Shown here: one piece after another, positions 1,584 through 23,892 of the stretch
Position numbering within the stretch: the stretch's first letter is position 1
Layout: each line of letters begins with the position of its first letter
Source: Pelagomonas calceolata
Taxonomy: Eukaryota
Direction of reading: 5' to 3'
Assembly (NCBI GenBank): GCA_918797485.1
Contig: CAKKNE010000001.1
Span: forward strand, 6,138,001-6,202,000
DNA length: 64,000 nt
Position numbers and translations under genes: made by a program
Notes under the pieces: generated by a model
What the model saw: only the letters and a program-made list of their open reading frames with translations
Databases searched by the model: none
What the model was told of the DNA's origin: nothing

Positions 1584-1633
1584 ACCCTTTTTTCGCACTC
1601 GTTGTGATTAAAATCTCGAACCGTCGGAAGCTT

Positions 1634-1656
1634 GCTAGTGTCTTACTAATGCTAGC
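1634..1656 (+). promoter_or_regulatory. Recurrent intergenic motif CTAGTGTCTTAC-N-GCTAG, copy 1
   Basis: gCTAGTGTCTTACtaatGCTAGc lies between divergent starts at 1583(-) and 1706(+). Confidence 0.65.
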
Positions 1657-1705
1657 AACCTGGGAAAGCACCGACCGAGGATTTCATTGTACACGGCCGC
1701 AAACG

Positions 1706-3040
1706 ATGCATGCGTTGCTTCTTGGATCGCTTTTGGTCATATCCAGACGATGCACAGCGATCACGACCATCGCTAAGGACGACGCCGTCCGACGAGACAC
1801 AGCACTGACCCGAAGCGCCGGCGGCGCGGCCGCGGACGCCAGCGCCGCGGACGCAGCACTGACCCGCAGCACCGGCGGCGCGGTCGCGGACGCCAGCGCC
1901 GCGGACGCAGCACTGACCCGCAGCACCGGCGGCGCGGTCGCGTGGCGACCCGTTCCGTCGTTTGCGATCAATTTGGACCTCGCGCCCGAGCAACGCTACG
2001 TAGGAGTGGCGACGCGTTTCAATTCATCCATCTGGCGCTTCTACGACAAGCTCTTCGCGCACGACGCCGCGTTGACCAATGCGCTGTACGCCATGGTCGA
2101 TAAGAGAGGCCCGGAGCCCGACAGCGTGATGAGAGGTGAGATCGAAGGCATCGTCGCGACGACGCGCCTGCCCGCGAAGTTCGTCCAGGGCGTGCAAGCC
2201 CTCTACGAACTGCAGACGCTCATGGTGCCCGTGGTAAATGGCTCGTCGCGCCAGGACCCGCTGCCGCGCCGGTACCGCGCGCTGGAGAGCTGGCCGCTGC
2301 GCGGCCCGGGCTGCACGGGTATTGTTGCGACGAACACCGCGGACGGAACGGTGGTCCACGCTAGGAACATGGACCTGGCTCCCGTGAAGTTGTTCGCGCC
2401 GCTCGTCTACGAGGGCGTCTTCACGCGGAACGGATCGGTCGTGTTCCGCGCCGAGATGGTCGCGGGCTACGTGTCGCTCCTCACGGGGTACCGACCCGGC
2501 GCCTCCGGATACGTCGTCGAGCGGAACACGCGCTACCCGGCGCACAAAGGAGGCAACCGCGAGATGCTCGATAATCTGCTCGAAGGCGTGCCGTTGTCGG
2601 GCTGGACGCTGCGGCGCATGATCGAAAGCATCTCGACCTACGACGAGGCGCAAGCCAAGGTCCAGAGCGCGCATTTCGTCGCGACGGAGTATGTTGTCAT
2701 GTCGGGCGTCCGTCGAGGCCACATCATCGCGCGGGACCCTGCTAGCGTCGCGCACCTGTCGACGCTCGGCCCGTCGGCCTACGTGATCGTGACGAACTTT
2801 GACTACTGGTGGCACGACGTGAGGGAGTATTTGGACCCGACGGGCGGCCACCTCGGGCTCCCGCGGCGCGTCGCGGCGCAGCGCATCCTGAACGCGTCCC
2901 TGAACACCGGCCTCGCGCTGACGCCCGGATTGCTGAACGCGACCATCTCGGCGGACGGCGTCCTCGCGGACACGATCTTCCAGGCCGTCGCCGACGTCGA
3001 GGTAGGTCTGTGGTCGATCGCGCAGCCGGTGCTGCCGTGA
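1706..3040 (+). CDS. Acid ceramidase / N-acylethanolamine acid amidase (Ntn-hydrolase), secreted or lysosomal
   Basis: Signal peptide; alpha-subunit motif INLDLAPEQRY; catalytic start CTGIVA...VHARNMD; VTNFDYW. Confidence 0.85.
   Translation: MHALLLGSLLVISRRCTAITTIAKDDAVRRDTALTRSAGGAAADASAADAALTRSTGGAVADASAADAALTRSTGGAVAWRPVPSFAINLDLAPEQRYVGVATRFNSSIWRFYDKLFAHDAALTNALYAMVDKRGPEPDSVMRGEIEGIVATTRLPAKFVQGVQALYELQTLMVPVVNGSSRQDPLPRRYRALESWPLRGPGCTGIVATNTADGTVVHARNMDLAPVKLFAPLVYEGVFTRNGSVVFRAEMVAGYVSLLTGYRPGASGYVVERNTRYPAHKGGNREMLDNLLEGVPLSGWTLRRMIESISTYDEAQAKVQSAHFVATEYVVMSGVRRGHIIARDPASVAHLSTLGPSAYVIVTNFDYWWHDVREYLDPTGGHLGLPRRVAAQRILNASLNTGLALTPGLLNATISADGVLADTIFQAVADVEVGLWSIAQPVLP
1800..1942 (+). 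repeat. 54-bp coding tandem repeat, ~2.6 copies (ALTRS[A/T]GGA[A/V]ADASAADA)
   Basis: Near-identical units start at 1800, 1854 and 1908 with cagcactgaccc. Confidence 0.9.
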
Positions 3041-3084
3041 AGTTGTCTGTGACTTCTAGTTTTAAGAATTTTTTAGCTGTTAAT

Positions 3085-6000
3085 TCACCCGTCCGGCGTC
3101 CCCCCCTCGTGCGGCCGCACCTTCGTCGGCGCGATGCGGTTGCAGTCGTCGTTCGACGGCCAGCGGATTTCGTAGAACTTGAGCTTGCCGGCGCCGTCCT
3201 TCACGAGGTCGTCGACGGTGCCGCGGTACCATCGGGCGCCTGCGCGACGCGACCAACTCAAACGCGCCACGACGGACACAACACACAAACAGAGCGCGCG
3301 CGCAACACACACACGCGGGCGAATCACGCTCAGGTCCATGCCGAACAGCGCATCCACATCAGCCCCCACCGCAAAAAAGTCAGCGGCAAAGGCCGAGAGC
3401 CGGCGCTTCGGCGGCTTCGGCGACGCGGCCGGCTTGGGCCGCTTCTTCTTCTTTGACGGCAACAGGTGGCGGCCGTCCTCGTCGGCCGGCCGCACGGAGC
3501 GCGCCGCGCAGGACTCGACGCGGCCGTCGTCCAGGACCACGTCGTAGCCGACCGCCGACGAAGACTTCACGCGCCCGAGCACCCAGACCTCCTCCTTGCG
3601 GCCCTTGCGCTGGCGCACCTCGACGCGCTCGCCGACCTGGAGCGCCGTCGGGAACAGGCCCCCGAACTCGTCGACCATGTCCTCGTCGTCGTCGCGGTCG
3701 TCGAGGACCTCGTCCTCGCCGCCGCCGTCGCGGCGGCGGCGCTGCCGCTTCTGCGCGCTCCAGCACGTGGGCGCGCCCCTCAGGAGCTGGTCCAGGGTCA
3801 GCGTCGCGCTCTTGCCCGCGGCGGGGCCGGTGTCGAAGACGACGGAGTACATCGTGGGCGCCGGCCCCGTCTCGGCCTTCCCATACAACTCGGTCGTGCG
3901 GCGCCGGCTGCGCTGCGGCACGGGGTTCGAGACCGTTGTGATGACGCCGCTGCCCTGGCCCACGACCTCCACTCTATCACCGGGCAGGAACGCGCCGTCG
4001 GTCTTGTCGTGGCCCGGCCGCCGGCTGCGCGGCGACCCGTCGCGGCTGTGGCTCCCGCCGGCGTCGTAGCCGCCGCCGCGCGCCGCCCGCTTCCTGTGTG
4101 GACATCAAACGTCACGCCCCCGTAACCGCGTCGATTGATTCCCACACGGCCCGCCACAGCTTCTTCTCCCACTTCCGCGACGCCTTCCAGGCGACCTGGA
4201 ACTCCGTCTCCCACAAATCTTCTTGAATATCGATGGCGTCGATGCCCTCCGGGGGCTTGTACGTGACCCTCGTGCAGGCCTGGTACGTGCCGTCCTCGGC
4301 CTGCACGCGTCCCACCCCGATGACCACGCCGTCGCACGGCACGTCGTCTCCATTATGTAAAGTGACGTTCGTCCGCACGAGATCGCCGATGCGCTCGCCC
4401 TCCAGCAAAAACGCGCCCTCGTCCTGCGGCGACGGCGTCCACTTCCCACTATCGTCCCGCGTCCAGTTGCCGCCCTCCACTTCCAAGGAAGACGCGTCCC
4501 TCCTCTTAAACGCCTCCCACCTCACAAACGCGTCCCGCGCCGCGCCGAACTCGTCGTCGCCCGCGTAATGATACAAGTCCTGCTGGAAGCCGTTTTCATA
4601 CACAACTCGCACGCACGCGACCTGGTCCTCGTCGTCCTCGTGTATTAGTAATGAACCGACGCCGATGACCTCGCCCTCGAGCACCGTGCCGTCCACGTTG
4701 CGCCAGACCTTCGTCCCGATCAACGGCCCGTCCGTCCTAAAGTCCTCCCTATCTTCCTTGGGCACGACCCACTTCCCCTCCTTTTTCGTCCAGTCGCCCT
4801 CGAACTCGACCGGCGTGTCGAACTTCTTCACCGCCTCGCGATGTAACAGGTCCGCGTCCTTCTTCGCCTTCTTCTCCGCTTCCACGTCCTTCTTCGACCG
4901 CGGGCCGCGGCCGCCCTCGACCTTCACGGCCTCGAGGCGCTTCGTCACGCTGCGGTCCTCGCGCTTCAGCGTCGAGACGGGCGGCCGCGGCACGGACAGC
5001 GCGGGCGGGCCGCCCTCGACCCAGCACGTGCCCTTGAGCTCGTTCGTCGGCGAGAGCTTGTAGAGCTTGAGCTTCTTCTGGAACTCGGCTTTGTTGGTAG
5101 TACAGTGCGCGCAGCCGACGAGCTTGCAGGTGTGCGGCGGCGTCGTGTCCGACAGGTTCGCGAGGATGGCGTCGCGCTCGGCGCCCGGGTCTCCCACATA
5201 TTCGTGGCGGTACGACGGCCTAAGTTTGTCGCGCGTCGTCGGCGCCCAGGTCCCGGCCTTCTGGGCGAGCGAGCGCCCTCTTACGTCCGTCGTCGCCTCA
5301 TCCTTGTCGGCCTTGTGGTTTCTGGCGGACGGGCGCCACCGCGGGCTCCTATCCCGACACTTGCCGAACGTCGGGTGCATCGTGATGGACGTGACTCGTC
5401 TTCCTGTGGACGTCAATTGCGCCGCGACGGTCTCGGCCAGCATCCAGCCCAGCCCGATGCCCTGGAAGTCCGGCAGGATGACGACGCGGTGCTCCCGACT
5501 ACCGCCGCTCGTCCCTTCCCCGGCGCCGGGCATGCCTAGAGCTGTGTTGACACTATGAAAGCCGATGGGCCGGCCGTGCAACCGGAGCTCCCAGCTCCAG
5601 CAGCTCTTGTTGATGTCCTCGGTCAGGTAGTGGTGGCGCTTGAACGAGTCGAAGTGGTAGTACGGGCACCGCTGCAGCTGCAAGTTGACCGAGGGCGCCG
5701 CGAAGAGCTCGTCGAGCCGCGCCACGTCCGTCGTCGCGGGCTCGTCGGTCGCCGCGAGGCGATCCGCGTGTAGTAGTACTAAACAGCCCGTGCGCGTGTC
5801 GCCCGTGTCCTCAAATACGTTGCCCTTCTTGTTCTTCTGCCACCAGCACGTCGTCACGACCGCCGTCATGAAGAGCCAGCGCGGCTTCAGGAAGGCCACG
5901 ACGTCCTCGTGGACTGTGGCGCAGACGACGTGCTGCAGGTTGTGCTGCGCCACGTAGGCAGCGACGCCCGCCGCGACGCGCCGCGCGAGGGGCCGGGCAG

Positions 6001-7640
6001 CGAGGCTCGTGAACTCGTCCAACACACATTCGGACGCCAGCAGCCAGGCGATCTGGCAGCGCGCGCGGCCGCACTGCGTCAGCTGGTCGATCCGCGACGA
6101 CCGCTCGTCGTCGTCGACGGCGGCGGCGTCCAGTCGCGCGGCCGCGTCGGCCTCGCCGAACTTGTCCCGGAAGAGCTTCGCGACCGTCGCGTTCATATCC
6201 CAGTCCGGCTCGCGCGTCGCGACCTTGCCCTCCTCCACACCTTTGAAGACGCGTCTCAGCACCGTCGTCTTCCCGGAGCCGCTCGGCCCGTGGACCACGC
6301 CGATGGACCACGCGCCCTTGATTTTCGACGCCGGGAAGTCCGGCGGCGCAAACACACAACTCCCGTCAAATTCAAAGTCGAACGCCGCCGACGCTGCCTT
6401 GGCGCAGGCGTCGACCTTGACCTGGCACTTGTAGTCCTCGGGCAGCTTGCCGTCGCCCAAGACAACTTTCTCGATGGCCTCGGGCTCGATACTATACGAA
6501 GCCGTGATCTCCCGCACGAGATCCGTCTCGCGATTCTTGCGGCGGTCGCGCGCGTTCGGCAGGCCGCCGTGCGTCCAGTCGCACGCGAAGGAAACATTCG
6601 GGCGTAGGGGCTTGTCCGTCGGGCGCAAATACAACGTGTCGGCGGCGACGTCGTAGCACCAGTCCGGCTGGAGGTACGCGCAGACGTCGTCGTGCGCCGT
6701 CGCGAGGACCAGGCCCGACATTCTTAGGCGCCGCGCGTATTTGCCGACCGCGCACGCCATGGACCGCGCCGCGTCGCGGTTGACCACGCACGCAAAGTCG
6801 TTCACCACACAAAATTGCTTCTGAGACGCGGCGTGGCGCGCGAGGCACGTCGCCACGTCGACGCGCGCGGCCTCACCGTTACTGAGGGCCTTGTGCGGCC
6901 GGAGCCACGACGGCACCGAGGACAGCCCGCACGCGCCCAGCCTCGCGGCTGCCTTGTCGGCGCGCTCCTTGTCGTCGCCCGTCTCGAGCTTCGCTAGGAC
7001 GGACACGACGGACTCGTCGTCGGGAAACGTCTGCACCGACAGGTTGTGCGTGTGGCCGAAGTGCCGCGCTAAGTATTGGTCGCGCGCGGCGTCCGCGCGG
7101 CCGAGGACGAGGCCGACGCTGAAGCCTTGCGGCGGGTCGGAGTTGTTGGTGCGCGTCATTTTGTGAATGTGTTCTCTCACCGTCCGAGAGCTTGCGTCGG
7201 TTTCACGGCGCTCACGATTTTCCGGGGCACGCGCGTGCAGGAGCAGGGTCCGGGTGTATGGCGCCGCCGGCCGAGCAACTGTGTGGGCGCGCCGCGCTCT
7301 CGGTCGCTCGTTATCAGCCGGAACCTGAAATGCTCTCCCGAGCTATTCGCTGCGGGAGGGTAACGCAGCGGGAAAAGCTGCAAGGGCAGTGATGCCTGGC
7401 TTTGTCGCTACGCTTTCGCAGCTTCTGCTGCGTCCCGGATCCACTAGGAGCTCCGTGCGCAGCGTTTTTTGCCAAAGGCTGAGCAGCAAATGGGTTTGGG
7501 CCAATCCTGCCCGCTAAATCGAGTCCGATCTCTTCGAAAGTCTCTTCAGGCTTCGTCAAGCGCCCAACCCGATGTGAAAAAACGACGCTTCGAGGCAGGA
7601 AAAAAACGTGACGGGTTTCTAAGGCATCGTCGTCGACCAT
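3085..7640 (-). CDS. Tandem ABC-ATPase (one degenerate) + GNAT acetyltransferase + multiple Tudor/Agenet-like domains; multi-exon, 5' exons uncertain
   Basis: Motifs LSNGEAARV, GPSGSGKTT, CVLDEFTS and REHRVVILPDFQGIGLG. Removing intron 4157-4094 joins ORF 4112..7180 in frame to ORF 3085..3972 (KKL|KRAARGGGY...FLPGDRVEVVGQG). Probable intron 7180-7119 (GT..AG, in frame) and possible GC-AG intron 3329-3240. The ATG at 7640 is a guess. Confidence 0.75.
4094..4149. mobile_element. Introner element (56 bp) forming intron 4157-4094 (-)
   Basis: TIRs CTGTGTGGACATCAA / TTGATTCCCACACGG. Flanking 8-mers cccgcttc / cccgccac match 6/8. The GT donor lies in the TSD and the AG acceptor at the TIR end; splicing restores the frame. 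Confidence 0.8.
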
Positions 7641-7963
7641 TTTGCAACCAAAGAGCATCGATAGCTCGCAGCGCTGCTGCGTGATAGATTTTTCGCAGTG
7701 CTGCGTATAGTCGCAGCATTGTTGGGACGCTGCGGACCGCTCAGGCTCTGCAGCACACGATTGCATCAAGCAGCCAAATATAAATTATTGACGCTCGCGA
7801 CGCACGAGTGGCATTGAGAACCCGCGAGGAGCGTAGCAGGACGCCTCTCTTAGAACGTGACAGAGAACAGAAGAACTAGACCAGAGACCCGAGACACGCG
7901 GCACTGCCGACAGCGCTAGCGCTTCAGACAGCAAACAACAGACGGAACGCACAGAAGCGTTGC

Positions 7964-10900
7964 ATGCCCCCCCGCCGCGTCCTCGGCCCCGGCGGCCGCC
8001 GCCGCCTCGGCCCCTCCAAGGAAGCCACCAAGTCCATCGGCGCGGGCGGCGGCGGCTCGTCCAAGGCTGATGGGGGAGCGCGCCTCAAGGGCAAGATCGC
8101 CGTCCTCAAGAGGGCGGAGAAGTTCGGGTTTATATCACCTCTGACGGACGGCGCCTTCGACGACGACGCGCCGCCGCCCAAGAAGCTGTACTTTAGCTTC
8201 GCGGACTGCGACTGCGACCCTTCGCGATTGAGGGAGTGGCAGCGCGTGACCTACGCGCCGCCCGCGCAAGGGACCGACCGGGCCTCGCACATCGAACTGG
8301 ATCTCGTTGGTTCCACGCCACATTTAGATGAAACACGCTTCGGCCACGTCGACTCCATTTTGACCAATGTGCGGAGCCACGACAGTACCAATGTCGAGCG
8401 CCAGTCGCTGGCGGCCTGCGACGTGACGGCGGCCACTACTTTCTGCGTGTCGCTGGACGCGCCTTCCATCCTCCTAAGGCCGAACGAGGTCTGCGAGGTG
8501 CTCTCTAGGGATGACCTGCCCTTCAAGGCCGTCGAGAGTCTGGTGAAGGCCCTAGCTAGTCAAGACGCGGCCGAGGCGGCGAGTGGGGCTGCGAGAGTCG
8601 TGTACCAGACCTGCTCGCGCTCTCCGTTGTTGTTGAGCGGCCGGGGCGCGCGCGCCATGCTGCTCCGAGCCGGGTCTCGTAGACAGCAGCAACAAGGCGA
8701 CGCGGCGATGCTGCTCCAAGTGACGATCGTCGCGGGCGCGTGCCTGGACGCTGATAGATCTTGTTATGAGAATTTACAAGATCTCCTCGAGCAGATCCGG
8801 GATCTCGTGGACGAGCGCAAGCGCGAGTCGTCCCAAGACTGGGTCGCTGCCCGGAAAGAGGCCCTCGCCGTGTTGCAAAGAGCCGACGCGTTACGAGCGG
8901 ACGCCAAGCGGCTGACGTCGTCGTCCGACGCCGACTTTCGACGGGTCGCGCCCTTCCCTTCCAGAAGAGACGTCACGCTCGCGCGGCCGCTCGAGGATGT
9001 TGTTAAAAATCAGATCACGGGCGAGCAGGCCTCGGCCGAGGCCTATGTGGCGACGCACTTCCATTTACTCAGGGCGGACTTCCTCGGTCCCTTGCGAGAT
9101 GGACTAAGAGCCGTGTCGAACGGCGAGTCGTCGAGAGACGTTGACGTGTACCGGACGTGCGCGTTGCGAGGTATCATACAAAGAAGAGGCTTACTACATC
9201 GCTTCGAGTGCGCCGGCGACCGGGAGCCCTGGGCCAAAGCGTCGTGGGCGAAGGCCAGCGAGGGCCAGCGCAAGGGCCGGCTGATGAACGGCGCGCTCGT
9301 CATTGTGGTGGACCCGACGACGCTGGGGGAGCAGACCTGGGTCTGTGCGGTTGTTCGATCTAGAGAGTTACGCAAGGACAAGAGCCTGGTCATTGATTTG
9401 GAGGTCGAAGGGGCGTTGGCTTTTGGGAGAAGCTATTCCCTGGTCGAGTGCACCTCCACATACTTCGAAGCGTATCGATGGGTCCTGAACTGCCTCCAGG
9501 CGGCGGACCTCGAAGCGTTCGCGCAGAATCGAGTATTACAGACATTCCTACGTCTACCGGAAGAACCACCTCCACCGGACTACGTGTTTCCCCAGGACGA
9601 GTACGTGTTTGGGACGGAGAAGCGACGCGTTTTAGATGAGGATGCCTGGCCCGTCGATGGCTGGGGGTCCCTCGACAAGTCGCAGGCCGCGGCGGTGAAA
9701 CGAGCACTCACCAAAAGTGTCGCCGTGATCCAGGGCCCGCCGGGAGCTGGCAAGACGCACGTCGGGCTGGAGGTCATGCGTTTGCTGCTCGCAAATGTCT
9801 GCGGCGCGAAGGCGAAGAATCCTTTTGTCGTCATGTGCGCGACGAATCACGCGTTGGACGCCTTCCTCGAGGGCGTGCTGGAGTTCGAAAGTAGCATCGT
9901 GCGCGTCGGCGGGCGTTCGAGTTGCGAAGCCTTGGCGGATAAGAATTTGAGGGAACTCTCAAAAGCGTGGCGCGAGATGGACGAGCGCGCGGCCGAAGGA
10001 AGTTTGTTGGGGGCCCAGCACGTCCGCGGGCGCCGGGCGCTGTACGGACGCTTGAAGACGCTGGAAGAAACCATTACCAAACTCGCGAAGGAGGCCCACG
10101 CTTTGTCGAAGGGTGCTTCCTTGCAGGACCTCGAGCAGTGGCTCCGCGAGGGGAGTGATGAGGACGACTTCGACCCGCTCGGCGTCACGGAGGAGCACCT
10201 CAGAAGTTTGTGCTCGCGACCGTGCAAGGACGTCCTCGGGACGTGGCTCGAGAGCGACGCGCCCGAGAAGTTACTCGCGAAGCCGCCCGACATCCGATCC
10301 ACCAAAAAAGTCGAGCCCAAAGTGAACACGACAGAAGAGGAGGAGCCCGACCCCGACGCCGTCGATACAAAAGCGGCGATGGCCGACGAGGCCGACGACG
10401 TTCCCAAAAAGCGCGAGGCCGTCTTCTTGGACATCGGCATGGCGCCCTTTGTCAATGCAGGCAACCGCAAGGCTAGGCGCCGGGGCAAGCGCGGGCCGAA
10501 CGCGCCGCCGCCTCCTCCAAATGTAGGTGAGGACGTGTGGAGCTGGCCTTTATTGCAAAGACGCCAGGCCTGGGCGGCCTGGGGCTCTGCCATTCATAGG
10601 AGAAGGATTAATGAATTAAGGTCCTGTGCCGCTCGGGCGGAACGGACGCGGCGCGAGATGGAGCGCTTGGATCGAGACGTCGACGCGGAGGTATTGCGCG
10701 CTGCCAAAGTCGTCGGCTTGACCACGACGTCCGTCGCGAAACGACGCGATTTATTAAGGTTGATCGGCGCGGAGGTCCTCATCTGCGAGGAGGCCGCCGA
10801 GGTGCTCGAGGCGCACGTCCTCGCGGCCGTCTCGGCGACGACGAAGCATGTCGTACTCATTGGCGACCACGAACAATTAAGACCGGGCACGGCCGTCTAC

Positions 10901-11704
10901 AAGCTCGCGACGGACTATAATCTGGACGTGTCGCTGTTCGAGCGCCTCGTGAAGAACGGCGTGCAGTCGACGATGCTCGAAACCCAAAGAAGGATGAAGC
11001 CGAACATTTCCAGATTCGTGAAGGAGATCTATCCCAATCTGCGGGACCACCCGTCGACGCGGGAGCGGCCGTCGATCCGCGGCCTCCAGAAGGACGTCTT
11101 CTTCCTGTCTCATCAAAACGCCGAGGATCAGGGGAGCGCCTCGAAGCAGAACCCGGCCGAGGCGAAGTTGGTTACTGCTTTCTGTCGGTATTTGGTAAGG
11201 GGGCCGCCGCGCTACGGCCAAGATAAAATTACCGTTCTAGCTACATATGTGGCCCAGGTCGGTTCATTAAGACGCAAGCTGCAGAGCGACGGGTTGGGCG
11301 ACGTGCGCGTGGCGTCCGTCGACAACTTCCAGGGCGAGGAGAACGACATCATTCTACTATCGCTCGTGCGGAACGACGGCCGGCCCGACGGCGCGAACCA
11401 CAAAAAGGCGACGATCGGGTTCCTGGCGACGTCCAACCGCGTCTGCGTGGCGCTGACGCGCGCGCGGAACGGGCTGTTTATTTTTGGCAACGCCGGCTTA
11501 CTGAGCGCGCGGTCGAAGCTCTGGAAGAACGCGCTGGACGACCTGCGCGGCCGCGGCGGCCTCGGGGGCGGCCTACCGCTCGTGCCGCGGTTCCGCGACG
11601 GCGACGACGCGGTGCGCTACGTGTCGTCGGCGCGCGACGTCGAGGCCGTGCTCGAGGACGTGGGGGAGGTGGTCCCTCCTCCGGCTCCCGTCGTCGAGGA
11701 GTGA
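7964..11704 (+). CDS. ZNFX1/Hrr1-like superfamily-1 (UPF1-like) RNA helicase with an N-terminal cold-shock-like domain
   Basis: YVATHFHLLRADFLGPLRDGL (ZNFX1-type), QGPPGAGKT, CEEAAEVLEAH, LIGDHEQLRP, SLFERL, VDNFQGEENDIILLSLVR and NRVCVALTRAR. The N-terminal LKGKI...KFGFI...LYFSF segment is CSD-like. Confidence 0.85.
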   Translation: MPPRRVLGPGGRRRLGPSKEATKSIGAGGGGSSKADGGARLKGKIAVLKRAEKFGFISPLTDGAFDDDAPPPKKLYFSFADCDCDPSRLREWQRVTYAPPAQGTDRASHIELDLVGSTPHLDETRFGHVDSILTNVRSHDSTNVERQSLAACDVTAATTFCVSLDAPSILLRPNEVCEVLSRDDLPFKAVESLVKALASQDAAEAASGAARVVYQTCSRSPLLLSGRGARAMLLRAGSRRQQQQGDAAMLLQVTIVAGACLDADRSCYENLQDLLEQIRDLVDERKRESSQDWVAARKEALAVLQRADALRADAKRLTSSSDADFRRVAPFPSRRDVTLARPLEDVVKNQITGEQASAEAYVATHFHLLRADFLGPLRDGLRAVSNGESSRDVDVYRTCALRGIIQRRGLLHRFECAGDREPWAKASWAKASEGQRKGRLMNGALVIVVDPTTLGEQTWVCAVVRSRELRKDKSLVIDLEVEGALAFGRSYSLVECTSTYFEAYRWVLNCLQAADLEAFAQNRVLQTFLRLPEEPPPPDYVFPQDEYVFGTEKRRVLDEDAWPVDGWGSLDKSQAAAVKRALTKSVAVIQGPPGAGKTHVGLEVMRLLLANVCGAKAKNPFVVMCATNHALDAFLEGVLEFESSIVRVGGRSSCEALADKNLRELSKAWREMDERAAEGSLLGAQHVRGRRALYGRLKTLEETITKLAKEAHALSKGASLQDLEQWLREGSDEDDFDPLGVTEEHLRSLCSRPCKDVLGTWLESDAPEKLLAKPPDIRSTKKVEPKVNTTEEEEPDPDAVDTKAAMADEADDVPKKREAVFLDIGMAPFVNAGNRKARRRGKRGPNAPPPPPNVGEDVWSWPLLQRRQAWAAWGSAIHRRRINELRSCAARAERTRREMERLDRDVDAEVLRAAKVVGLTTTSVAKRRDLLRLIGAEVLICEEAAEVLEAHVLAAVSATTKHVVLIGDHEQLRPGTAVYKLATDYNLDVSLFERLVKNGVQSTMLETQRRMKPNISRFVKEIYPNLRDHPSTRERPSIRGLQKDVFFLSHQNAEDQGSASKQNPAEAKLVTAFCRYLVRGPPRYGQDKITVLATYVAQVGSLRRKLQSDGLGDVRVASVDNFQGEENDIILLSLVRNDGRPDGANHKKATIGFLATSNRVCVALTRARNGLFIFGNAGLLSARSKLWKNALDDLRGRGGLGGGLPLVPRFRDGDDAVRYVSSARDVEAVLEDVGEVVPPPAPVVEE

Positions 11705-11734: not shown

Positions 11735-14068
11735 TCAATGGAACTGGCCCCAGAAACTAATGCCCGGGCTCACGGGCTCCGCGTCGACGACGACGTTCCC
11801 GGGACTCGTCACGGCCTCGCCGTCGAGGACGGTGGCGTCGAGGAACGCGTTGGTGACCCGGACAAAGCCGGGCCATGTCTGGAATTCTTCGGGGTCCGGA
11901 TATGCGCCCCATCTTGCGCGCAACGCGGCGTTTTCCGGCTGGTTGTACCAGGCGGCTATCTGGTTGTAAATTTCCTCGAATTTCGGTGCCGAGGGCTCAG
12001 GCTCGGTGCGCTGGGAGGCCTCTTCCTGCTCCCCGAACAGGAACGAGGATAGCTTTCTCGTGAAGCCCGGGCGCTCGACGGTCTCCACAGCCACGGCTTT
12101 GGTGGCGAAGAGCGCCGCGGCGCGCGTCTCCAGGGCGTACTCGTCGGGATCTTCCCGTGGCGACTCTGCCGGCGGCAGCAGACCGCATTCATGTAGCAGT
12201 ATTCTCGTTCTGTAGCAGAGAAGGCGGCGGGCGGCGGCGACGTAAGTTTCGTCCTTCTTCTTCCTACAGCAGACGCATGCGCCGAAGCCAGCAAGAAGGA
12301 CAAGCACGATGATGATGATAAGTGTTGGTGAGTTGATATGGCATTGCTTTTTGTTGCCAATGAGACACGGCCGGGCGCGTGGTGACCATTCGCATAGTCC
12401 CAGCCCGTCCTTATAAGAGACGCCGCACGAGGTTTTTCTGCACTTGGTTTTCTCAAACGCACGAGGTTTTTCTGCATTTGGAGGGAGTCCTTTTACGCTG
12501 CTGTCCAGGCACCAGCCGAGGTCCTGGTTGAAGTCCTTTGCCCTCAAGAAGATATCTTCCATTGTTCTCACGGCACCAACGTCCCAGCCGCTGAGGTCCT
12601 GGTTAAACCTCTTGGCCGTGTCGAACATATCACTCATGTCTTTGACAGCGCCGGTTTGCCATTTGCCGATTGGTCCGTTAAACGACGAGGCGCCCTGGAA
12701 CATGCTCTCCATCGTTGTCACACCAGAGACGTCCCACGCTCCGATGTCCTCGTTAAAGGACGCTACGCCCGGATTGCTGTACGAGCCACAGTGTTCGGTG
12801 CACGTGTAAAACAAATTCCTCATGTTCGTCACCCTCCCAGTCTCCCACGTAGAAATGTGGCCGTACGTCGCCTCGGCGGCCGCCGCGTCCGCGAGCCACG
12901 CGGCGGCGGCCGTTTTGATGTTGCTGTCGTCCATTGCGTAGCCGGTAACTGCGCCAGGGCAGGTGTGCGTGATCCCCTGCGCGTCGGGCTTACTGACAAA
13001 TACACCGCAGTACGTCGACGCGCACTTGGCGTTACGGACGCTCAGACCCACGTCGTCGTCAAGGCACCAGCCGAGGTCCTGGTCGAAGGCCGAGGCGTCC
13101 TGGAACATGTAGCGCATGTCCGTGACGCTGTGGACGGCCCAATTACCGATGTCTCGGTTAAAGGCCAAGGCCATGTAGAACATCGCGTGCATCGTAGTGA
13201 CGCCGGAGGTGTCCCACGCGCCGATGTCCTCGTTAAAGGACGCCGCGGCCGTGTTGCAAGAATCCCACGAACCCCCACAAAACAAATACGACATGTCCGT
13301 CACCCCTGATGTCTCCCACGTCGAGATGTGGCCGTACGTCGCCTCGGCGGCCGCTGGGTTCGAGAGCCAGGCATCGACGGCCGTGCGAATGGTGTTGTCG
13401 TCCGCGACCAGTGGAGTTACTGTCGGCGCGGGCGTCATCGTTGGAGCCAGAGATGTTGTCGGCGCTAAAGTCGGCCGACAGGTGCCTTCCTCCATTGTAT
13501 AGACACCGCACGATGTCGACGCGCACGGGGTGTAGGAGAACGCGCTTCTCAGGTCCACGTCGTCGCCCACGCACCAGCCGAGGTCCTGGTCAAAGGCCGA
13601 GGCGGAGAAGAACATCGCGGACATCGTCGTAACTCCGGAGGTGTCCCACGCGCCGATGTCCTGGTTAAAGGCCGAGGCGTACCAGAACATGTTGCTCATG
13701 TCCGTAACGCTGTCGACGGCCCAACCACCGATGTCTCGGTTAAAGGCCGAAGCGTAGCCAAAAAAGTAGTACATGCTCGTAACGCCAGAGGTGTCCCACG
13801 CGCCGATGTCCTCGTTAAAGGACGATGCGCCCGAGTTGTAGCAACTGCTCCATGAATAGGAGCTATCGCAAAACAACTTCTTCATGTCCGTCACCCCCCC
13901 AGTCTCCCACGTAGAAATATGGCCGTACGTCGCCTCGGCGGCCGCCGGGTTCGAGAGCCAGGCATCGACGGCCGTGCGGATGCTGCTGTCGTCAAACACG
14001 TAGCCCGCGAGCGCACTCCGGGGGCTGCTAAAAGCGAGAGCGATGCCCATCAACGCCAGTCTCATCAT
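11735..14068 (-). CDS. DUF285/BspA-type (bacterial surface 26-residue repeat) membrane protein
   Basis: Signal peptide; three modules of '[14 protein letters not shown]' plus '[24 protein letters not shown]' repeats; TM segment [17 protein letters not shown]. Confidence 0.85.
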
Positions 14069-16318: not shown

Positions 16319-19300
16319 TTAGGACTCCAGCTCCTCGGCCATGGGTTCGGTAGCAAGGAAGTCCGCCGCCGTGACGTCCTTGAGCGCGGCAGAGACGGCC
16401 TCGCGATCCTGCTTCCACCCCGGCCGCGGATCCGTTTTGTTGTTTACCGCGAAACCGATTACGTTGGCCAGGGATCGCCAGGCGTTATTCCGACGATTTT
16501 GAGCAGTTGCACTACTATCAGTACGCAGTTTTTCAATGGCCCTGTCTAGGAAATCGTGCGCGAGTTCTTTGGGGAGCGCCTTCGTCGAGTAGCACGCCAC
16601 AGCGCCCGGGTGCGTGTGCGTGCGCGCGACCATTTTCTGCCACTGCGCCGCGAGCTTTTGCACTGCCTCCCGCGAGGCGTCCGCTATCTTCGCGTCGTCG
16701 TCGCCCTCGTCGTCGGGCGGGCCGACCCCGCGCCGCGCCATGACCCGACGCAGCTCCGTCTCTGTCAGGTCAGCGAGGGCGGCGTCTTCCGCCAGTTCGA
16801 TCACGGCGCCTTCGGCCAGTTCCCGCGGCGTCGGGGCTCCCAGGTGGAGCGGGCGCGCCAAACCATGAGGTATATTCCAGTCGCCCCCCCCCCCTTTTTT
16901 TTTTTTACGTTGGGAGTTCATTTTTCTGTATGCTTCTTCGAAGGTGCAGTAATCAAAGGCCTGGTTCATGAACCGCTCCGCCGTGAGATAATTGCCGGCT
17001 TCTGGGAACGCGGGCGGAACAGTAGCGTTGGTCGCGTCGAGCGCGACGCGCAACATGCGCAGGTGCGGCGTGGCGAAGCAAGGGGCTAGCCAATTCAAAG
17101 CAGCCACGCCACGGGATGTTCCCCAGTCGGCAAACGGATACACGACATGCTGGTAGCCAGTAACGGCGCGGTTGTAGCGCCAGTGCGGCGTTCCGTCGGC
17201 CGCCAACCGGACGCGGTTCAAGCACTCTTTGGAGATGAGGTGCAGCTTATACTCAAATGCGTACAGGTCACGGGGCCCACTCAGTGATGCGAACACGACT
17301 TTTTCTCTATTGAAAATGACAACACCGCGCCGGCCGGCCTGGCCGCTGATGATGTGTCGAGCCACGACGAAGAAGGATTCGGACTTCTCGTAAGCTCTGT
17401 CGCCCATGCGCTTGCGGAGTTTCTCGAAGGCATTTCTACACGTATCTCCAGGCCATACAGAGATGGAGCGATCTAGACCGAAGCGCTTGAGGCGCTCGGT
17501 GAAATTATTCTCGGGCGGGCCCAGCGCCGAAGCGAGGCCGACGTTAGGCTCAATGGCCCAGGACGGCACCGGCAGGACGACCATGTATTCCCAGATCGAC
17601 TCACATGCGCTGTGGTGGCGCAGATCTCCAGTGCACTCGTAGCAGCACACGCTGTCGCCGCGCTTCTCGTAAATCTTGACGCCACTCGCGACCTTGCGCG
17701 GCGAATCCGCAACCAGGTGCTGCTCGCATTCTTTGTCAAAGTAGAGATTTTTAATCGACACCACCCGCGACTCGAACGAGTACCACTCCAGCGCCGTGCT
17801 CACAAAGCCCTGCTCGCCGCACGTGACCTCGGTGCTGCCAAACATACGATCGAGCCAGAAGAGCGCGTCACGCAGATCCATAACATCGACGCCATAATGT
17901 TCTATCGCGAGGAATTGCGCAAACTTAAAACCGGTGATGCACGTGCACCAGCCGACGCTCTCGGCGGTCCCGGAACGTAGCGTGAGCGCAATGCGGACGA
18001 GTTCCTTGGCCGGCCCTTCGGGGAGCGCCCTAAAGCACTTGCGAACGCGCTCATCTATAGAAGGATCGTCGAGCAGCCGATCCCAGATCTCACAATGCAT
18101 GGCGAAGCTGTGCGAGATGCGGGGACCATTATGGGCAAGCTGCGTTTCATCGGGCGCCGAGCCAAAGGCCGTGTTCCACTCGGTCAGGGGCAGCACGTCC
18201 CGCCCCAAGAACGGTATCGTGCACATGTCGACATATGTGCGCAGCGGCCATCCCGGCATGCGCACGCCATCGGGCCGCCACGCAAATGGATCGAACTGTG
18301 TGGACATCAACCAGTGACTCAGGTTACGGACAACGTCGCGTCGATGGCGTGGCCCTCTTTTTTGAACAATAAATAAGGCACTGTCGTCGACGGGCTGGAT
18401 CAGGCTTCTACTTTCAGAATCTTCGTGGACTGGCAGCGGCCACTGACTTAGTTTCACGTTCGCCAGTTTCCGGATTGCGTGTATGAGTTTTCCACCTTCT
18501 TCATTTGGTCTGTGGATGACGGACAGGTTCGCATATCTACGGCGAAAGATCTGCCCGTTGGCAACGAGCTGCCTCATGGCATCCTCTTCTCCAAGTTGTT
18601 CTACCAGGCGTTCTTTTTGTCTGCCCGTATAAGCATCAAAAGCCTCCCACAAAAGAGGCTCGTAGAACACATCTTCGAAAGCTTTGCCGCACGCGACGGC
18701 GATGCGTTGATAATCGGAGTTCATGGATACTTCGTGCCACTTCTTCAACTCTTCAGGGTCCCAGGCAGCGGCCTTGACGACTTTGATGTCTGCTTTCTCG
18801 TCAGGCCACCGGAGGCGGTCCAAAGAATCATGAAACACTAAGCGGACTTCGAGCTCGCTGTCTAGGGCCCCTCGTCGAGTACACCGAAGCACAACAGCGT
18901 CGAACCACTCAGACGGTCGCGTCTTGTCGTTCCCCAGATACGTGTTCACTTTTATCTTTGAATTGACGGCCGGCGGCAGATTCGGGTACTCGTTGCCTTT
19001 CTCTCGTAAAGCTTCATGATCCGGATCAATCAAGGACGCGCGCTCGTGGCCCCAGAGGCTCCGGAGCCTCCGGACCTTTCGATACATCGCGACGTACCAG
19101 GGCTCCGCGGTCTTCTTTGCCGGCATGTGCGGGTGCGTCAGGTACTTGAATATGCGTTTCAATATTTTGTCGTCGAATCGTGTTTCTCCCGCTAATAACG
19201 CGCGGAGGCCTTCGCGCCCGCCTTCTCGCTCCGCAAAGGACAGCCGGTGTCTTCTGAGCCGGTGTCTTCTGTTATTCACGGAGAGCGTCGTCCACACTGA

Positions 19301-19432: not shown

Positions 19433-19692
19433 CTTGCTTGGGCCCGCAGCTCGTCTACACGCGCGCAGCGCGTGTCTTGGCAGAGCACCCCTCGCTCTTG
19501 GAGTAGAGAGCAGTCGAAGGCCTGCGCGGTGACGGTCGCATTTGTGGGCGTTCTCGAACCATCCCACGCGTGAGCTCTCGCAGCGTCAATCAGTAGTACG
19601 TGAAGCACACGCCCTTCTCTCAAACCTCTCACGAGCACTTCGTTGTGGCGCTCGTCTTCGCGTCCACTTGTAGTAGGCGTTCAAGACGATCG

Positions 19693-19880
19693 GCCGGACG
19701 GCGGCCGGGCCAGGTCGTCGACGCGCGGCGCCAGCGCCACGCCCACGACGCGCCGCCTCGCACAGGCCCGCCGGAACGGCGCGTAGGGCCAGCGACGCGA
19801 CGCGCAGCGCCGGTCCGCGGCGGCGCCGGCGCTGCCGGACGGCGGCCGGGCCAGGTCGTCGGCGCGCGGCGCCACGCCCT
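19693..19880. repeat. ~45-bp direct repeat, copies at 19693 and 19834
   Basis: gccggacggcggccgggccaggtcgtcg[a/g]cgcgcggcgcca occurs twice, 141 bp apart. Confidence 0.8.
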
Positions 19881-20690: not shown

Positions 20691-20713
20691 GCTAGTGTCT
20701 TACAGCCGCTAGC
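20691..20713 (+). promoter_or_regulatory. Recurrent intergenic motif, copy 3
   Basis: gCTAGTGTCTTACagccGCTAGc lies ~165 bp upstream of ATG 20877. Confidence 0.65.
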
Positions 20714-23881: not shown

Positions 23882-23892
23882 GTTTTACTAGC

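What the first reader, a model, noticed from the sequence alone, without database searches (positions are those of the whole stretch)
3085..7640. Phage-type ABC-ATPase-GNAT enzyme fused to about five Tudor-like chromatin readers: candidate eukaryotic DNA/chromatin modification system
Seen: removing the introner intron (4157-4094) turns two ORFs into one protein. Its order is ABC-ATPase, ABC-ATPase, GNAT (HHYL...REHRVVILPDFQGIGLG...HPTFG), then five SH3/Tudor-like barrels (LIGTKVWR..VRVVYENGFQQDL; IGDLVRT..TRVTY; PGDRVEVV..YSVVFD; LQVGERVEV..W..GRV..YDVVLDDG; FAVGADVDALF..WYRGTV..YEIRW). Knowledge: soluble ABC-ATPase+acetyltransferase fusions (COG2401-like) occur in prokaryotes and phages. From memory (to verify), they have been linked to the phage Mu Mom-type GNAT base-modifying enzymes. 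Tudor/Agenet domains read methylated histones. Inference: this is a horizontally acquired enzyme retargeted to chromatin, perhaps installing an unusual DNA base or acyl mark.
Basis: partly seen in the sequence, partly recalled or inferred. Interest (0 to 1): 0.85.

Follow-up and report, generated by a model that had tools for sequence, protein, structure and literature searches.

The report
Phage-type ATPase-acetyltransferase fused to Tudor domains
A marine alga expresses a 1,302-residue protein that joins a phage-type ATPase-acetyltransferase to Tudor-fold domains; it is predicted to put acyl marks on chromatin, most likely on DNA bases, which has not been tested.

Summary
The gene is real and expressed. 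RNA-seq confirms the 64-nt GT-AG intron (4157..4094). The mRNA 5' end lies near 7471 and the start codon at 7159, not 7640. The spliced product has 1,302 aa.

Residues 1-656 are a tandem ABC ATPase plus GNAT. They match phage family phrog_11143 (E 5e-86), a roughly 380-aa single-ABC+GNAT protein. In 3 of the 5 phages I inspected, this gene sits beside ParB-like or methylase genes near the terminase.

Published computational work predicts that this family acylates a DNA base (passages of PMC7824862). It is not a Mom-family member.

Two of the five C-terminal barrels model confidently as Tudor folds (PHF1 Tudor, Z 9.8, rmsd 1.2 A). Two are a repeat pair with only weak Tudor/chromo-barrel likeness. 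One is unresolved.

Relatives in haptophytes and dinoflagellates carry chromodomains, an AT-hook, another Tudor domain or a Strawberry-notch helicase. This supports a role on chromatin.

The scan had already noted the phage module on other DNA (11 findings hold the words, 8 shown). It had no note on this protein or genome. The substrate is untested.

The parts
3078..7471 (-). Transcribed region (mRNA) of the gene
   Evidence: Transcript contigs span 3139..7471 with both introns removed. Many read starts at 3078 mark the 3' end. Stranded polyA reads cover the region.
4158..7159 (-). Coding exon 1 (aa 1-1000 plus 2 nt), starting at ATG 7159
   Evidence: 7159 is the first ATG of the transcript; the 5' UTR 7471..7160 holds no ATG. 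Homologs P0004 and P0006 align from this point.
4094..4157 (-). Intron 1: 64 nt, GT-AG, phase 2, a member of the introner-like element family
   Evidence: RNA joint 4092->4157 in raw reads and two contigs. Inverted ends are shared with spliced copies at 18296-18391 and 25821-26028.
3342..4093 (-). Coding exon 2
3240..3341 (-). Intron 2: 102 nt, GC-AG, in frame, lying inside barrel 5
   Evidence: RNA joint 3237->3340 with 3-letter ambiguity, 25+27 reads and 2 contigs. Splicing gives DALFG|ARWYRGTV, as in P0004, P0005 and P0024.
3085..3239 (-). Coding exon 3 with stop codon TGA at 3087..3085
   Evidence: The spliced CDS is 3,909 nt and encodes 1,302 aa.
6644..7123 (-). ABC ATPase domain 1 (aa 13-172). 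Walker A (GRADAARD) and Walker B (VVNDF) are degenerate; the signature LSNGE is intact.
   Evidence: Profile of the phage ABC part, E 6e-26. Best phrog_11143 stretch is aa 10-190.
5864..6340 (-). ABC ATPase domain 2 (aa 274-432). Walker A (GPSGSGKT) and Walker B (VLDEF) are intact; the signature is degenerate (LTQCG).
   Evidence: Pfam ABC_tran E 5.4e-6. Phage ABC profile E 9.5e-14. ABC1 against ABC2 by BLASTP: E 1e-7, 27% identity.
5192..5752 (-). GNAT acyltransferase domain plus family-specific C-terminal extension (aa 470-656). Motifs: FKRHHYL, REHRVVILPDFQGIGLG, HPTFG..RDRSPRWRP, RPSYRHEYVG.
   Evidence: Pfam Acetyltransf_1 E 2.7e-4, 21.7 bits against a cut-off of 20.7. The motifs align with phage proteins P0022 and P0023.
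5021..5134 (-). Conserved H-x-C-x4-C-x-H-C ... C-W motif (aa 676-713), possibly a zinc knuckle
   Evidence: Conserved in P0003, P0004, P0005, P0007 and P0024 and absent from the phage proteins, read from the sequences. No family match. This is an inference.
4565..4798 (-). Barrel unit 1 (aa 788-865)
   Evidence: Sequence repeat of unit 2: BLASTP E 2e-8, 36% identity over 74 aa. Model pLDDT is under 50, so the fold is not verified.
4160..4471 (-). Barrel unit 2 with C-terminal helix (aa 897-1000)
   Evidence: pLDDT 65-83. Best Foldseek hit is the MSL3 chromo-barrel, E 0.05, probability 0.95. Best VIA hit is the SMN Tudor, Z 4.7. The likeness is weak.
3778..3987 (-). Barrel 3 candidate (aa 1037-1106)
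   Evidence: pLDDT under 50. The only support is a language-model lead to Tudor/Agenet clusters, scores 0.78-0.82. Unresolved.
3478..3648 (-). Barrel 4: Tudor fold (aa 1150-1206)
   Evidence: pLDDT about 80. PHF1 Tudor 8h43_C: Z 9.8, rmsd 1.2 A, 53 of 55 residues. PHF19, PHF20, SGF29 and TDRD3 also match.
3100..3375 (-). Barrel 5: Tudor/Agenet fold (aa 1241-1298), interrupted by intron 2
   Evidence: ADCP1 Agenet 6ie5: Z 8.9, rmsd 2.1 A, 58 aa. UHRF1 TTD, ERCC6L2 Tudor and 53BP1 also match. In a profile search of PDB sequences, 5 of 5 hits are Agenet, Tudor or chromo domains, best E 0.014.

Best explanation
This expressed algal gene encodes a tandem ABC ATPase plus GNAT acyltransferase of a phage family, fused to Tudor-fold domains. 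It is predicted to be brought to chromatin by those domains and would use ATP and an acyl-CoA to acylate a DNA base.

Shown:
- The spliced 1,302-aa reading frame and its expression.
- Full-length homology of the core to phage ABC+GNAT proteins.
- One intact and one degenerate composite ATP site.
- Tudor folds for barrels 4 and 5.

Inferred:
- The two ABC halves close head-to-tail around one ATP, as ABC dimers do, so that ATP binding clamps or presents the substrate to the GNAT.
- The Tudor domains replace the ParB-like DNA-targeting partner of the phage module.
- The substrate is DNA rather than protein or RNA.
For: Gene and expression:
- Two splice joints and end-to-end transcript contigs.
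- A 1,302-aa ORF.
- Conserved in P0003 (94%), P0006 (78%), P0024 (58%), P0005 (54%) and P0004 (48%). The P0004 cluster includes Aureococcus KAH8069376.1.

Core:
- phrog_11143 at E 5e-86.
- 61 phage records by tblastn with the window core and 87 with the Vibrio phage protein.
- Shared motifs extend beyond the GNAT fold.

ATP sites:
- ABC2 keeps Walker A and B, and ABC1 keeps the signature motif.
- The other composite site has lost all three.

Links to DNA:
- In 3 of the 5 phage loci inspected, the gene overlaps or follows a ParB-like nuclease or DNA methylase gene shortly before the terminase gene.
- In 1 of 5 it lies between primase and helicase genes.
- In 1 of 5 it lies among hypothetical genes.
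[quoted passage not shown] It names Tenacibaculum phage pT24, which is among my hits.

Chromatin targeting:
- Barrels 4 and 5 are Tudor folds.
- Relatives carry 2-3 chromodomains (P0012, P0013), an AT-hook (P0017, E 4.8e-4), a PTM/DIR17 Tudor domain (P0038), or a Strawberry-notch helicase (P0077; Pelagodinium beii).
Against: - No experiment exists for any member of the family. The DNA-base prediction is computational, and I could not read its source (Iyer et al. 2013).
- Reader domains are fused to histone acetyltransferases as often as to DNA-modifying enzymes (recalled), so the fusions do not separate a DNA substrate from a protein substrate.
- Pfam finds no Tudor family in the window protein.
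- Barrels 1 and 3 were not modelled with confidence. Barrel 2 matches only weakly.
- Barrel 4 appears to lack most aromatic-cage positions. This comes from my reading of the sequence against a recalled Tudor pattern.
- No ParB-like partner lies beside the gene. Its neighbours are an Upf1-like helicase and an NAAA-like hydrolase.
- The Pfam GNAT score is marginal (21.7 bits against a cut-off of 20.7).
Confidence: 0.45

Rival explanations
1. It is a chromatin-protein (histone) lysine acetyltransferase. The Tudor domains would dock it on methylated histone tails, the GNAT would acetylate nearby lysines, and the ABC module would act as an ATP-gated clamp or regulator.
For: The GNAT domain matches the general protein/small-molecule acetyltransferase family PF00583 best. 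Tudor, chromo-barrel and chromo readers are typical partners of histone acetyltransferase complexes such as SGF29/SAGA, Tip60 and MOF (recalled). SGF29 and Tip60 appear among the structural matches.
Against: The catalytic core and its family-specific extension are conserved with phage proteins. The bacterial hosts of those phages have no histones. In 4 of the 5 phage loci inspected, the gene sits among DNA-metabolism or packaging genes. AT-hook and Strawberry-notch helicase fusions point to DNA.
Confidence: 0.28
2. It is an RNA acetyltransferase. It would work like TmcA/NAT10 (ATPase plus GNAT making N4-acetylcytidine), acting on tRNA, rRNA or nascent RNA.
For: An ATPase coupled to a GNAT is the logic of TmcA/NAT10 (recalled). 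Soluble tandem ABC proteins such as ABCE and ABCF act on ribosomes (recalled). An earlier scan note named TmcA/NAT10 as the closest analogue of the phage cassette.
Against: The Pfam list for the window protein at E<=1 holds no TmcA/NAT10-type GNAT or helicase family. The ATPase is of ABC type, not helicase type. Fused chromodomains, Tudor domains and an AT-hook, and the phage ParB/methylase/terminase context, argue for chromatin or DNA.
Confidence: 0.08
3. It is a domesticated mobile-element or virus-derived gene whose enzyme is inactive. The protein would serve only as a chromatin-binding scaffold.
For: One of the two ATP sites is dead. The gene has acquired introner insertions. Paralogous transcripts exist.
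Against: The second ATP site (GPSGSGKT, VLDEF, LSNGE) and the GNAT acyl-CoA motif (QGIGLG) are intact. R683, Q694, G695 and G697 of that motif are nearly invariant (90% or more) across 50 long relatives. One consensus site plus one degenerate site is a known working arrangement in ABC proteins (recalled).
Confidence: 0.07

Closest known systems
Phage/prokaryotic single-ABC ATPase + GNAT proteins (phrog_11143). Examples: Nonlabens phage P12024S_24 (AFM54685.1), Vibrio phage vB_VmeM-32 ALY07058.1, Tenacibaculum phage pT24. Predicted DNA-base acyltransferases (Iyer et al. 2013, as cited in PMC7824862).
   Same: They are homologous over the whole core: ABC motifs, the SVPxWLRP-LSNGE block, the GNAT motif RxVVLPDFQGxGLG, and the extension HPxxG..R..S..W.P / RPSYxHxYVG.
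   Different: The window protein has two ABC domains in tandem, with one composite site degenerate, against one domain in the roughly 380-aa phage protein. It carries about 650 aa of C-terminal barrels. It is a spliced eukaryotic gene with no ParB-like or terminase neighbour.
Eukaryotic tandem ABC-ABC-GNAT relatives: Aureococcus anophagefferens KAH8069376.1 (in the P0004 cluster), Emiliania huxleyi EMIHUDRAFT_106499 (P0011), chromodomain forms P0012 and P0013, and dinoflagellate forms P0077, P0146 and P0056.
   Same: They share the tandem architecture. On a GNAT-domain tree the tandem label is strongly clustered: 3 changes, 0 of 500 shuffles as low, and a single origin is not excluded. All are hypothetical proteins with no tested function.
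   Different: The accessory domains differ by clade. This clade has C-terminal Tudor-type barrels. The P0012/P0013 forms have N-terminal chromodomains. P0017 has an AT-hook, P0146 a UBA-like domain and P0077 a Strawberry-notch helicase. The E. huxleyi protein keeps a Walker A lysine in ABC1, which this clade has lost.
Phage Mu Mom (Pfam PF25680), a GNAT-superfamily enzyme that acylates N6 of adenine in DNA
   Same: Both belong to the GNAT superfamily, occur in phages, and are discussed together as DNA-base acylating enzymes (PMC7824862 passages).
   Different: There is no sequence-level family relationship. PF25680 is absent from the hit lists, BLASTP gives E 1.2 and hhalign gives probability 0.3%. 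Mom has no ABC ATPase.
TmcA / NAT10 (ATPase-coupled GNAT making ac4C in RNA); recalled, not fetched
   Same: An NTPase module is fused to a GNAT that acts on a nucleobase. This is the best-studied working analogy.
   Different: Their ATPase is helicase-like, not ABC, and their substrate is RNA. No Pfam match to their families appears.
Reader-coupled chromatin writers (plant CMT3 chromomethylase; SGF29-SAGA; Tip60/MOF); recalled
   Same: A Royal-family reader (chromo, Tudor or chromo-barrel) is tied to a catalytic writer.
   Different: Their catalytic modules are unrelated to this one: a C5 DNA methyltransferase, and MYST or Gcn5 acetyltransferases without an ABC ATPase.

Membership tests
ABC ATPase + GNAT family (phrog_11143; phage 'ABC ATPase-coupled GNAT') | Significant match to the family profile over the ATPase and the GNAT | tested here: met
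   phrog_11143: E 5e-86, 289.9 bits, 3 stretches. tblastn to phage genes covers at least 80% of the query in 12 of 61 records.
ABC ATPase + GNAT family (phrog_11143; phage 'ABC ATPase-coupled GNAT') | ABC ATPase motifs: Walker A, signature LSGGQ-like, Walker B, H-loop | tested here: met
   ABC2 has GPSGSGKT, VLDEF and ATVH. ABC1 has LSNGE and ATAH but degenerate Walker A and B. Pfam ABC_tran scores 27.5 bits against a cut-off of 25.
ABC ATPase + GNAT family (phrog_11143; phage 'ABC ATPase-coupled GNAT') | C-terminal GNAT with an acyl-CoA motif and the family-specific extension | tested here: met
   Acetyltransf_1 scores 21.7 bits against a cut-off of 20.7. RVVILPDFQGIGLG, HPTFG..RDRSPRWRP and RPSYRHEYVG align with phage P0022 and P0023.
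ABC ATPase + GNAT family (phage module context) | Adjacent ParB-like nuclease or methylase gene, next to the terminase | tested here: not met
   The neighbours are an Upf1-like helicase and an NAAA-like gene. This is a feature of the phage operon, not of the protein family. Only this 64-kb window could be examined, because no genome is held.
ABC ATPase + GNAT family | Acylation of a DNA base (predicted activity) | not testable with these tools
   This is only a published computational prediction (PMC7824862 passages).
Mom family (Pfam PF25680) | Match to the Mom profile | tested here: not met
   Mu Mom scores E 2.4e-75. PF25680 is not listed for the window protein at E<=1, for the 12 homologs at E<=0.05, or for the 2 phage proteins at E<=0.1. 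hhalign probability is 0.3% and BLASTP E is 1.2.
Tudor/Agenet (Royal family) domains | Five-stranded SH3-like beta-barrel superposable on solved Tudor domains | tested here: met
   Barrel 4: PHF1 Tudor, Z 9.8, rmsd 1.2 A, 53 aa. Barrel 5: ADCP1 Agenet, Z 8.9, rmsd 2.1 A, 58 aa. Foldseek gives 27 hits at E<=1e-3, and the top rows are all tandem Tudor or Agenet readers.
Tudor/Agenet (Royal family) domains | The same fold for barrels 1, 2 and 3 | tested here: inconclusive
   Barrel 2: best Z 4.7 (SMN Tudor), and Foldseek E 0.05 (MSL3 chromo-barrel). Barrels 1 and 3 have pLDDT under 50. Barrel 1 is a repeat of barrel 2. Barrel 3 has only a language-model lead of 0.82.
Tudor/Agenet (Royal family) domains | Match to a Pfam Tudor, Agenet or chromo profile | tested here: not met
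   No such family is listed at E<=1 for P0001 or P0002. A profile of barrel 5 finds Agenet and PHF20 Tudor chains in the PDB only at E 0.014-0.025.
Tudor/Agenet (Royal family) domains | Aromatic cage that binds methyl-lysine or methyl-arginine | not tested
   Barrel 5 conserves Y, W, N and D at four positions across the 4 aligned sequences. Assigning them to cage positions rests on a recalled Tudor pattern. No peptide binding was assayed.
Introner-type intron-generating elements | A multi-copy element with shared ends whose copies are spliced as introns | tested here: met
   Shared ends. The 2 other copies laid are both spliced, and the element draws 500-600x depth on both strands. Intron 1 is spliced. 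Genome-wide copy number could not be counted, because no genome is held.
TmcA/NAT10 RNA cytidine acetyltransferases | Helicase-type ATPase plus TmcA-type GNAT domain | tested here: not met
   The Pfam list at E<=1 for the window protein holds ABC/AAA families and PF00583, PF13508 and PF08445 only.

The most novel reading that the evidence does not exclude
Pelagophyte, haptophyte and dinoflagellate algae have domesticated a phage DNA-acylating enzyme into a chromatin-guided writer of an acyl mark on DNA, for example N4-acetyl-dC or an N6-acyl-dA. It is aimed by Tudor domains or chromodomains that read histone methylation. This would be a new histone-to-DNA epigenetic pathway and the first known class of eukaryotic DNA acyltransferase.
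Probability: 0.3. Interest if true: 0.9.

Novelty: new variant of a known kind. Interest (0 to 1): 0.62.

Why it matters
Acyl marks on eukaryotic DNA have been reported (N4-acetyl-deoxycytosine). [quoted passage not shown]

This gene is a concrete, expressed candidate for such a writer. Its catalytic core comes from a very large phage family, with 4,632 clusters at E<=1e-10. That family is predicted, but never shown, to acylate DNA bases.

In several protist lineages the core has been joined independently to different chromatin readers. This makes the idea directly testable in cultured algae and in simple phage systems.

If the substrate turns out to be histones instead, it would still be a new class of ATP-gated histone acetyltransferase of viral origin.

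Caveat: the source paper of the prediction (Iyer et al. 2013) could not be read here. It may already mention eukaryotic members.

Tried and rejected
There is no coverage on this strand above about 7590, and the opposite-strand 5' UTR lies there.
- An N-terminal Tudor exon like that of P0006: tblastn of P0006 residues 1-120 found nothing in the window at E<=1e-3, and transcripts show no further intron.
- NCBIfam: only sub-threshold ABC transporter matches.
- PDB sequence search with P0001: nothing (best E 0.97).
- PADLOC: only weak generic ATPase hits (mad3 E 8.9e-6), so no defence-system assignment.
- Close relatives in IMG/VR viral contigs: none, so a recent giant-virus source was not found. 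The search reaches only close relatives.
- Whole genome: not held. Paralog count, introner copy number and a ParB-like partner elsewhere could not be checked.
- Literature:
  - 'COG2401': 0 papers.
  - ABC ATPase + GNAT + chromodomain + fused: 0.
  - ParB-like nuclease + GNAT + ABC + terminase + phage: 0.
  - GNAT / ABC ATPase / DNA modification / Emiliania / Aureococcus / chromodomain, at least 4 of 6 terms: 0.
  - Ten papers held at least 4 of 6 broader terms. The one I opened, PMC10853773, did not concern this family.
  - PMC4738411 has no mention of GNAT or ABC ATPase.
  - Iyer et al. 2013 (PMC3763556) and Krishnan et al. 2020 (PMC7544218) are not held.
- The representative search met a full queue once and ran later.
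- The careful tree search did not finish. The quick tree (SH-aLRT) was used.

Full report
**Gene structure**

The minus strand holds two ORFs, 4112..7180 and 3085..3972. A GT...AG stretch of 64 nt, 4157..4094, separates frames that continue into each other.

I laid stranded polyA RNA-seq reads of the same organism, and transcript contigs from two other studies, on 3000-7900.
- The 64-nt joint is present in 1+3 raw reads and in both long contigs (4,067 and 4,167 nt).
- A second joint skips 102 nt (25+27 reads, both contigs). With its 3-letter ambiguity, it resolves on the minus strand to a GC-AG intron, 3341..3240.
- The contigs run from 3139 to 7470/7471 with no other intron.
- Read starts pile up at 3078, which marks the 3' end.
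- Above about 7590 only the opposite strand is transcribed.

The 5' UTR 7471..7160 has no ATG, so translation starts at 7159. The spliced CDS is 3,909 nt and encodes 1,302 aa.

A 94%-identical database protein (P0003) reads straight across junction 1. P0004, P0005 and P0024 read 'FG(A)RW(Y/F)' across junction 2.

**The introner label**

Intron 1 is bounded by short inverted ends, GTGTGGGAATCAA ... TTGATGTCCACACAG. Its last 15 nt recur exactly at 18310..18296. Related copies lie at about 25830-25925 and 46650-46740.

Reads laid on 18000-26100 show three things.
- The 18.3-kb copy is a spliced 96-nt intron (7+18 reads).
- The 25.8-kb copy lies in a spliced 208-nt intron (36+19 reads).
- The element attracts 500-600x depth on both strands with many variants, as expected of a high-copy family.

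Both of the other copies that I tested are spliced, so the label holds.

**Enzyme core**

Pfam gives ABC_tran (aa 288-351, E 5.4e-6) and Acetyltransf_1 (aa 496-586, E 2.7e-4), both just above their cut-offs. PHROGs gives phrog_11143 (function unknown) at E 5e-86 in three stretches.

tblastn of aa 1-640 finds 61 of 50,697 phage records. The Vibrio phage homologue finds 87. These phage proteins are about 380 aa long, with one ABC domain plus a GNAT.

The window protein has two ABC domains. They match each other at E 1e-7 (27% identity), and each matches a profile of the phage ABC part (E 6e-26 and 9.5e-14).

| Motif | ABC1 | ABC2 |
|---|---|---|
| Walker A | lysine lost (GRADAARD) | intact (GPSGSGKT) |
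| Walker B | degenerate (VVNDF) | intact (VLDEF) |
| Signature | intact (LSNGE) | lost (LTQCG) |

An ABC ATP site is built from Walker A and B of one domain and the signature of the other (established knowledge). This pattern therefore gives one intact and one dead composite site. The same pattern is found in P0004, P0005 and P0006. More distant relatives (P0008, P0016) keep both sites.

The GNAT region aligns with the phage proteins through FK.HHYL, R.VVLPDFQG.GLG, HP..G..R..S..W.P and RPSY.H.YVG.

**Size and shape of the family**

A full HMMER pass over 1.84 billion representatives finds 1,833 proteins at E<=1e-3, 843 at <=1e-10 and 147 at <=1e-30. The phage protein P0023 finds 4,632 clusters at E<=1e-10 among proteins of 208-664 aa. 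The only names given there are automatic 'ABC-type ... ATPase subunit/GNAT' labels.

The session held 168 stored proteins. Of these, 132 carry a near-complete GNAT of this family:
- 66 are short with one ABC domain;
- 53 are long with two;
- 7 are long with one detected;
- 6 have none detected and are truncated models.

I built a quick maximum-likelihood tree of the GNAT domain for 119 rows, dropping the 13 rows of the last two classes.
- The tandem label needs 3 changes, and 0 of 500 shuffles are as low.
- A single origin is not excluded.
- The window protein groups with P0004 and P0005 (support 99).
- The clade that contains the chromodomain forms is separate (support 99).

Two cautions apply. 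The rows were chosen by likeness to a tandem query, and the tree is unrooted.

Named tandem members are all protists:
- Aureococcus anophagefferens (KAH8069376.1 in the P0004 cluster, and JL722_3930);
- Emiliania huxleyi;
- Pelagodinium beii;
- Amoebophrya sp.;
- Gymnodinium smaydae;
- EukProt and MMETSP entries.

P0042 (808 aa) comes from an unnamed metagenome contig, so prokaryotic tandem forms are not excluded.

**Phage context**

I inspected five loci.
- Streptococcus phage Javan420: the gene overlaps the end of a 'DNA modification methylase' gene. The terminase gene lies about 1.3 kb downstream.
- Oenococcus phage Vinitor-27: the gene overlaps an adenine methyltransferase gene at the genome end.
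- Gordonia phage Yago84: the gene follows a ParB-like nuclease gene, and the terminase gene is two genes downstream.
- Nonlabens phage P12024S: the gene lies between primase and helicase genes.
- Vibrio phage vB_VmeM-32: the gene lies among hypothetical genes.

Earlier notes of this scan describe the same ParB/ABC-GNAT module beside terminase genes on other DNA. Eleven findings hold the words and eight were shown. There was no note on this protein or genome.

**Literature**

I read passages of PMC7824862 (Iyer et al. 2021). [quoted passage not shown] It names Tenacibaculum phage pT24, which is among my hits.

Reference 136 is Iyer et al. 2013. That paper is not held, and neither is Krishnan et al. 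2020. I therefore cannot say whether eukaryotic reader-fused members are already in print. My searches for such a statement found none.

**Mom**

Mu Mom (P0025) hits Pfam PF25680 at E 2.4e-75. PF25680 is absent from the hit lists of the window protein (E<=1), of 12 homologs (E<=0.05) and of 2 phage proteins (E<=0.1).

BLASTP of the GNAT region against Mom gives E 1.2. hhalign of a 7-sequence GNAT alignment against Mom gives probability 0.3%, though a single-sequence template makes this a weak test.

The enzyme is therefore a separate GNAT family. It is analogous to Mom only in its predicted chemistry.

**C-terminal barrels**

Pfam sees none of them. I folded two window pieces with shallow alignments of 5 and 4 sequences.

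| Barrel | Residues | Model confidence | Best structural match | Verdict |
|---|---|---|---|---|
| 1 | aa 788-865 | pLDDT <50 | none | Not modelled; repeat of barrel 2 (E 2e-8, 36% identity over 74 aa) |
| 2 | aa 897-1000 | pLDDT 65-83 | MSL3 chromo-barrel, Foldseek E 0.05, probability 0.95; SMN Tudor, Z 4.7 | Weak likeness |
| 3 | aa 1037-1106 | pLDDT <50 | none | Unresolved; language-model lead 0.78-0.82 |
| 4 | aa 1150-1206 | pLDDT 70-83 | PHF1 Tudor, Z 9.8, rmsd 1.2 A, 53 of 55 residues | Tudor fold |
| 5 | aa 1241-1298 | pLDDT 70-83 | ADCP1 Agenet, Z 8.9, rmsd 2.1 A, 58 aa | Tudor/Agenet fold |

Further points on barrels 4 and 5:
- Foldseek against the PDB returns 27 matches at E<=1e-3. 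The top rows are all tandem Agenet or Tudor histone readers: ADCP1 (6e-5), AGDP3, SETDB1, UHRF1, SGF29 and 53BP1.
- Barrel 5 also superposes on UHRF1 TTD, ERCC6L2 Tudor and 53BP1.
- A 4-sequence profile of barrel 5 finds only Agenet, Tudor or chromo chains in the PDB (5 of 5 hits, best E 0.014).
- The language-model atlas lists 9 Tudor/Agenet-type clusters among 10 for barrel 5, at scores 0.82-0.87. That is a lead only.

For barrel 2, Foldseek finds 0 hits at E<=1e-3. The full VIA search peaks at Z 4.7, followed by SH3, CarD, SAWADEE and Tip60. That is within the range of chance.

In short, two barrels are Tudor folds, two form a repeat pair of uncertain but compatible fold, and one is open.

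Whether barrel 5 has a methyl-lysine cage is inferred only. It conserves Y, W, N and D, and I compared these with a recalled Tudor pattern.

**Other architectures in the family**

- Two to three chromodomains in P0012 and P0013 (E 4.9e-16 and 2.3e-28), and an AT-hook in P0017.
- A PTM/DIR17 Tudor domain between the two ABC domains in P0038. This was 1 of 50 long members scanned at E<=1e-5.
- A Strawberry-notch helicase in P0077 and a UBA-like domain in P0146.

Different clades have thus joined the same core to different chromatin or DNA modules.

**Mechanism**

Shown: an expressed tandem ABC-GNAT with one intact ATP site, an intact acyl-CoA motif and Tudor folds.

Inferred:
- ATP-driven closure of the two ABC halves presents the substrate to the GNAT.
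- The Tudor array takes over the targeting role that ParB-like partners have in phages.
- The substrate is a DNA base.

I put DNA at 0.45, chromatin protein at 0.28, RNA at 0.08 and an inactive scaffold at 0.07.

The reasons for preferring DNA are these:
- The core is conserved with phage proteins, whose bacterial hosts lack histones.
- The phage genes sit among methylase, ParB, terminase and replication genes.
- Some relatives are fused to an AT-hook or a helicase.
- A published prediction points the same way.

None of this is experimental.

**Surroundings**

The gene is flanked by a divergent Upf1-like SF1 helicase gene (AAA_11/AAA_12), whose transcript starts at about 7637-7652. On the other side is an NAAA/acid-ceramidase-like gene. 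There is no sign of an operon-like functional link.

**Verdict**

The protein is a new eukaryotic variant of a known but uncharacterised phage enzyme family. A 2024 review notes that no DNA N4-acetyl-cytosine writer is known (PMC11065753 passages), which is what makes this candidate worth testing.

Noticed in passing
window 18296-18391 (-), 25821-26028 (+), about 46650-46740: These are other copies of the short element with CTGTGTGGAAATCAA / TTGATTTCCACACAG-type inverted ends. The first two are precisely spliced introns of other genes. Reads pile up to 500-600x on both strands over 25859-26100, as for a high-copy introner family.
   Followed up: partly
window 3240-3341 (-): Intron 2 is a GC-AG intron whose length is a multiple of three with no stop codon. 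Gene models such as P0003 read through it and insert 33 spurious residues into the last Tudor domain.
   Followed up: yes
P0003 (94% identical relative): Its model is contiguous across the intron-1 junction but keeps intron 2, and it starts at an internal Met. If its contig is genomic DNA, the introner in intron 1 is absent from that relative, which would point to a recent insertion.
   Followed up: no
window 7472-7652 and 7964-11704 (+): A divergent Upf1-like SF1 helicase gene (AAA_11/AAA_12, 1,246 aa) starts transcription at about 7637-7652. That is only about 170 nt from the 5' end of the ABC-GNAT mRNA, so the two genes probably share a bidirectional promoter.
   Followed up: partly
window 5444-5491 and 3139-3174 (reads with loose ends; G>T at 5480): A second transcript in the same organism (an 1,800-nt contig in run X10) shares only the GNAT motif block and the end of the last Tudor domain. 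This indicates at least one expressed paralogue.
   Followed up: no
window 5021-5134 (-), aa 676-713: The conserved H-x-C-x4-C-x-H-C ... C-W motif between the GNAT and the barrels is present in the close eukaryotic homologues and absent from the phage proteins. It may be a zinc knuckle.
   Followed up: no
P0077 (Pelagodinium beii, 2,734 aa): A dinoflagellate relative fuses the ABC-ABC-GNAT core to a complete Strawberry-notch helicase (AAA_34, Helicase_C_4, SBNO).
   Followed up: partly
window 12495-14005: An array of 75-nt-period and about 136-nt repeats: the repeat finder families D1 and D3, and TRF 13577-13829 with 3.4 copies. It probably encodes a repeat protein.
   Followed up: no
window 1796-1957 (+): Three tandem 54-nt (18-aa) repeats lie near the N-terminus of the NAAA/acid-ceramidase-like ORF 1604..3040.
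   Followed up: no
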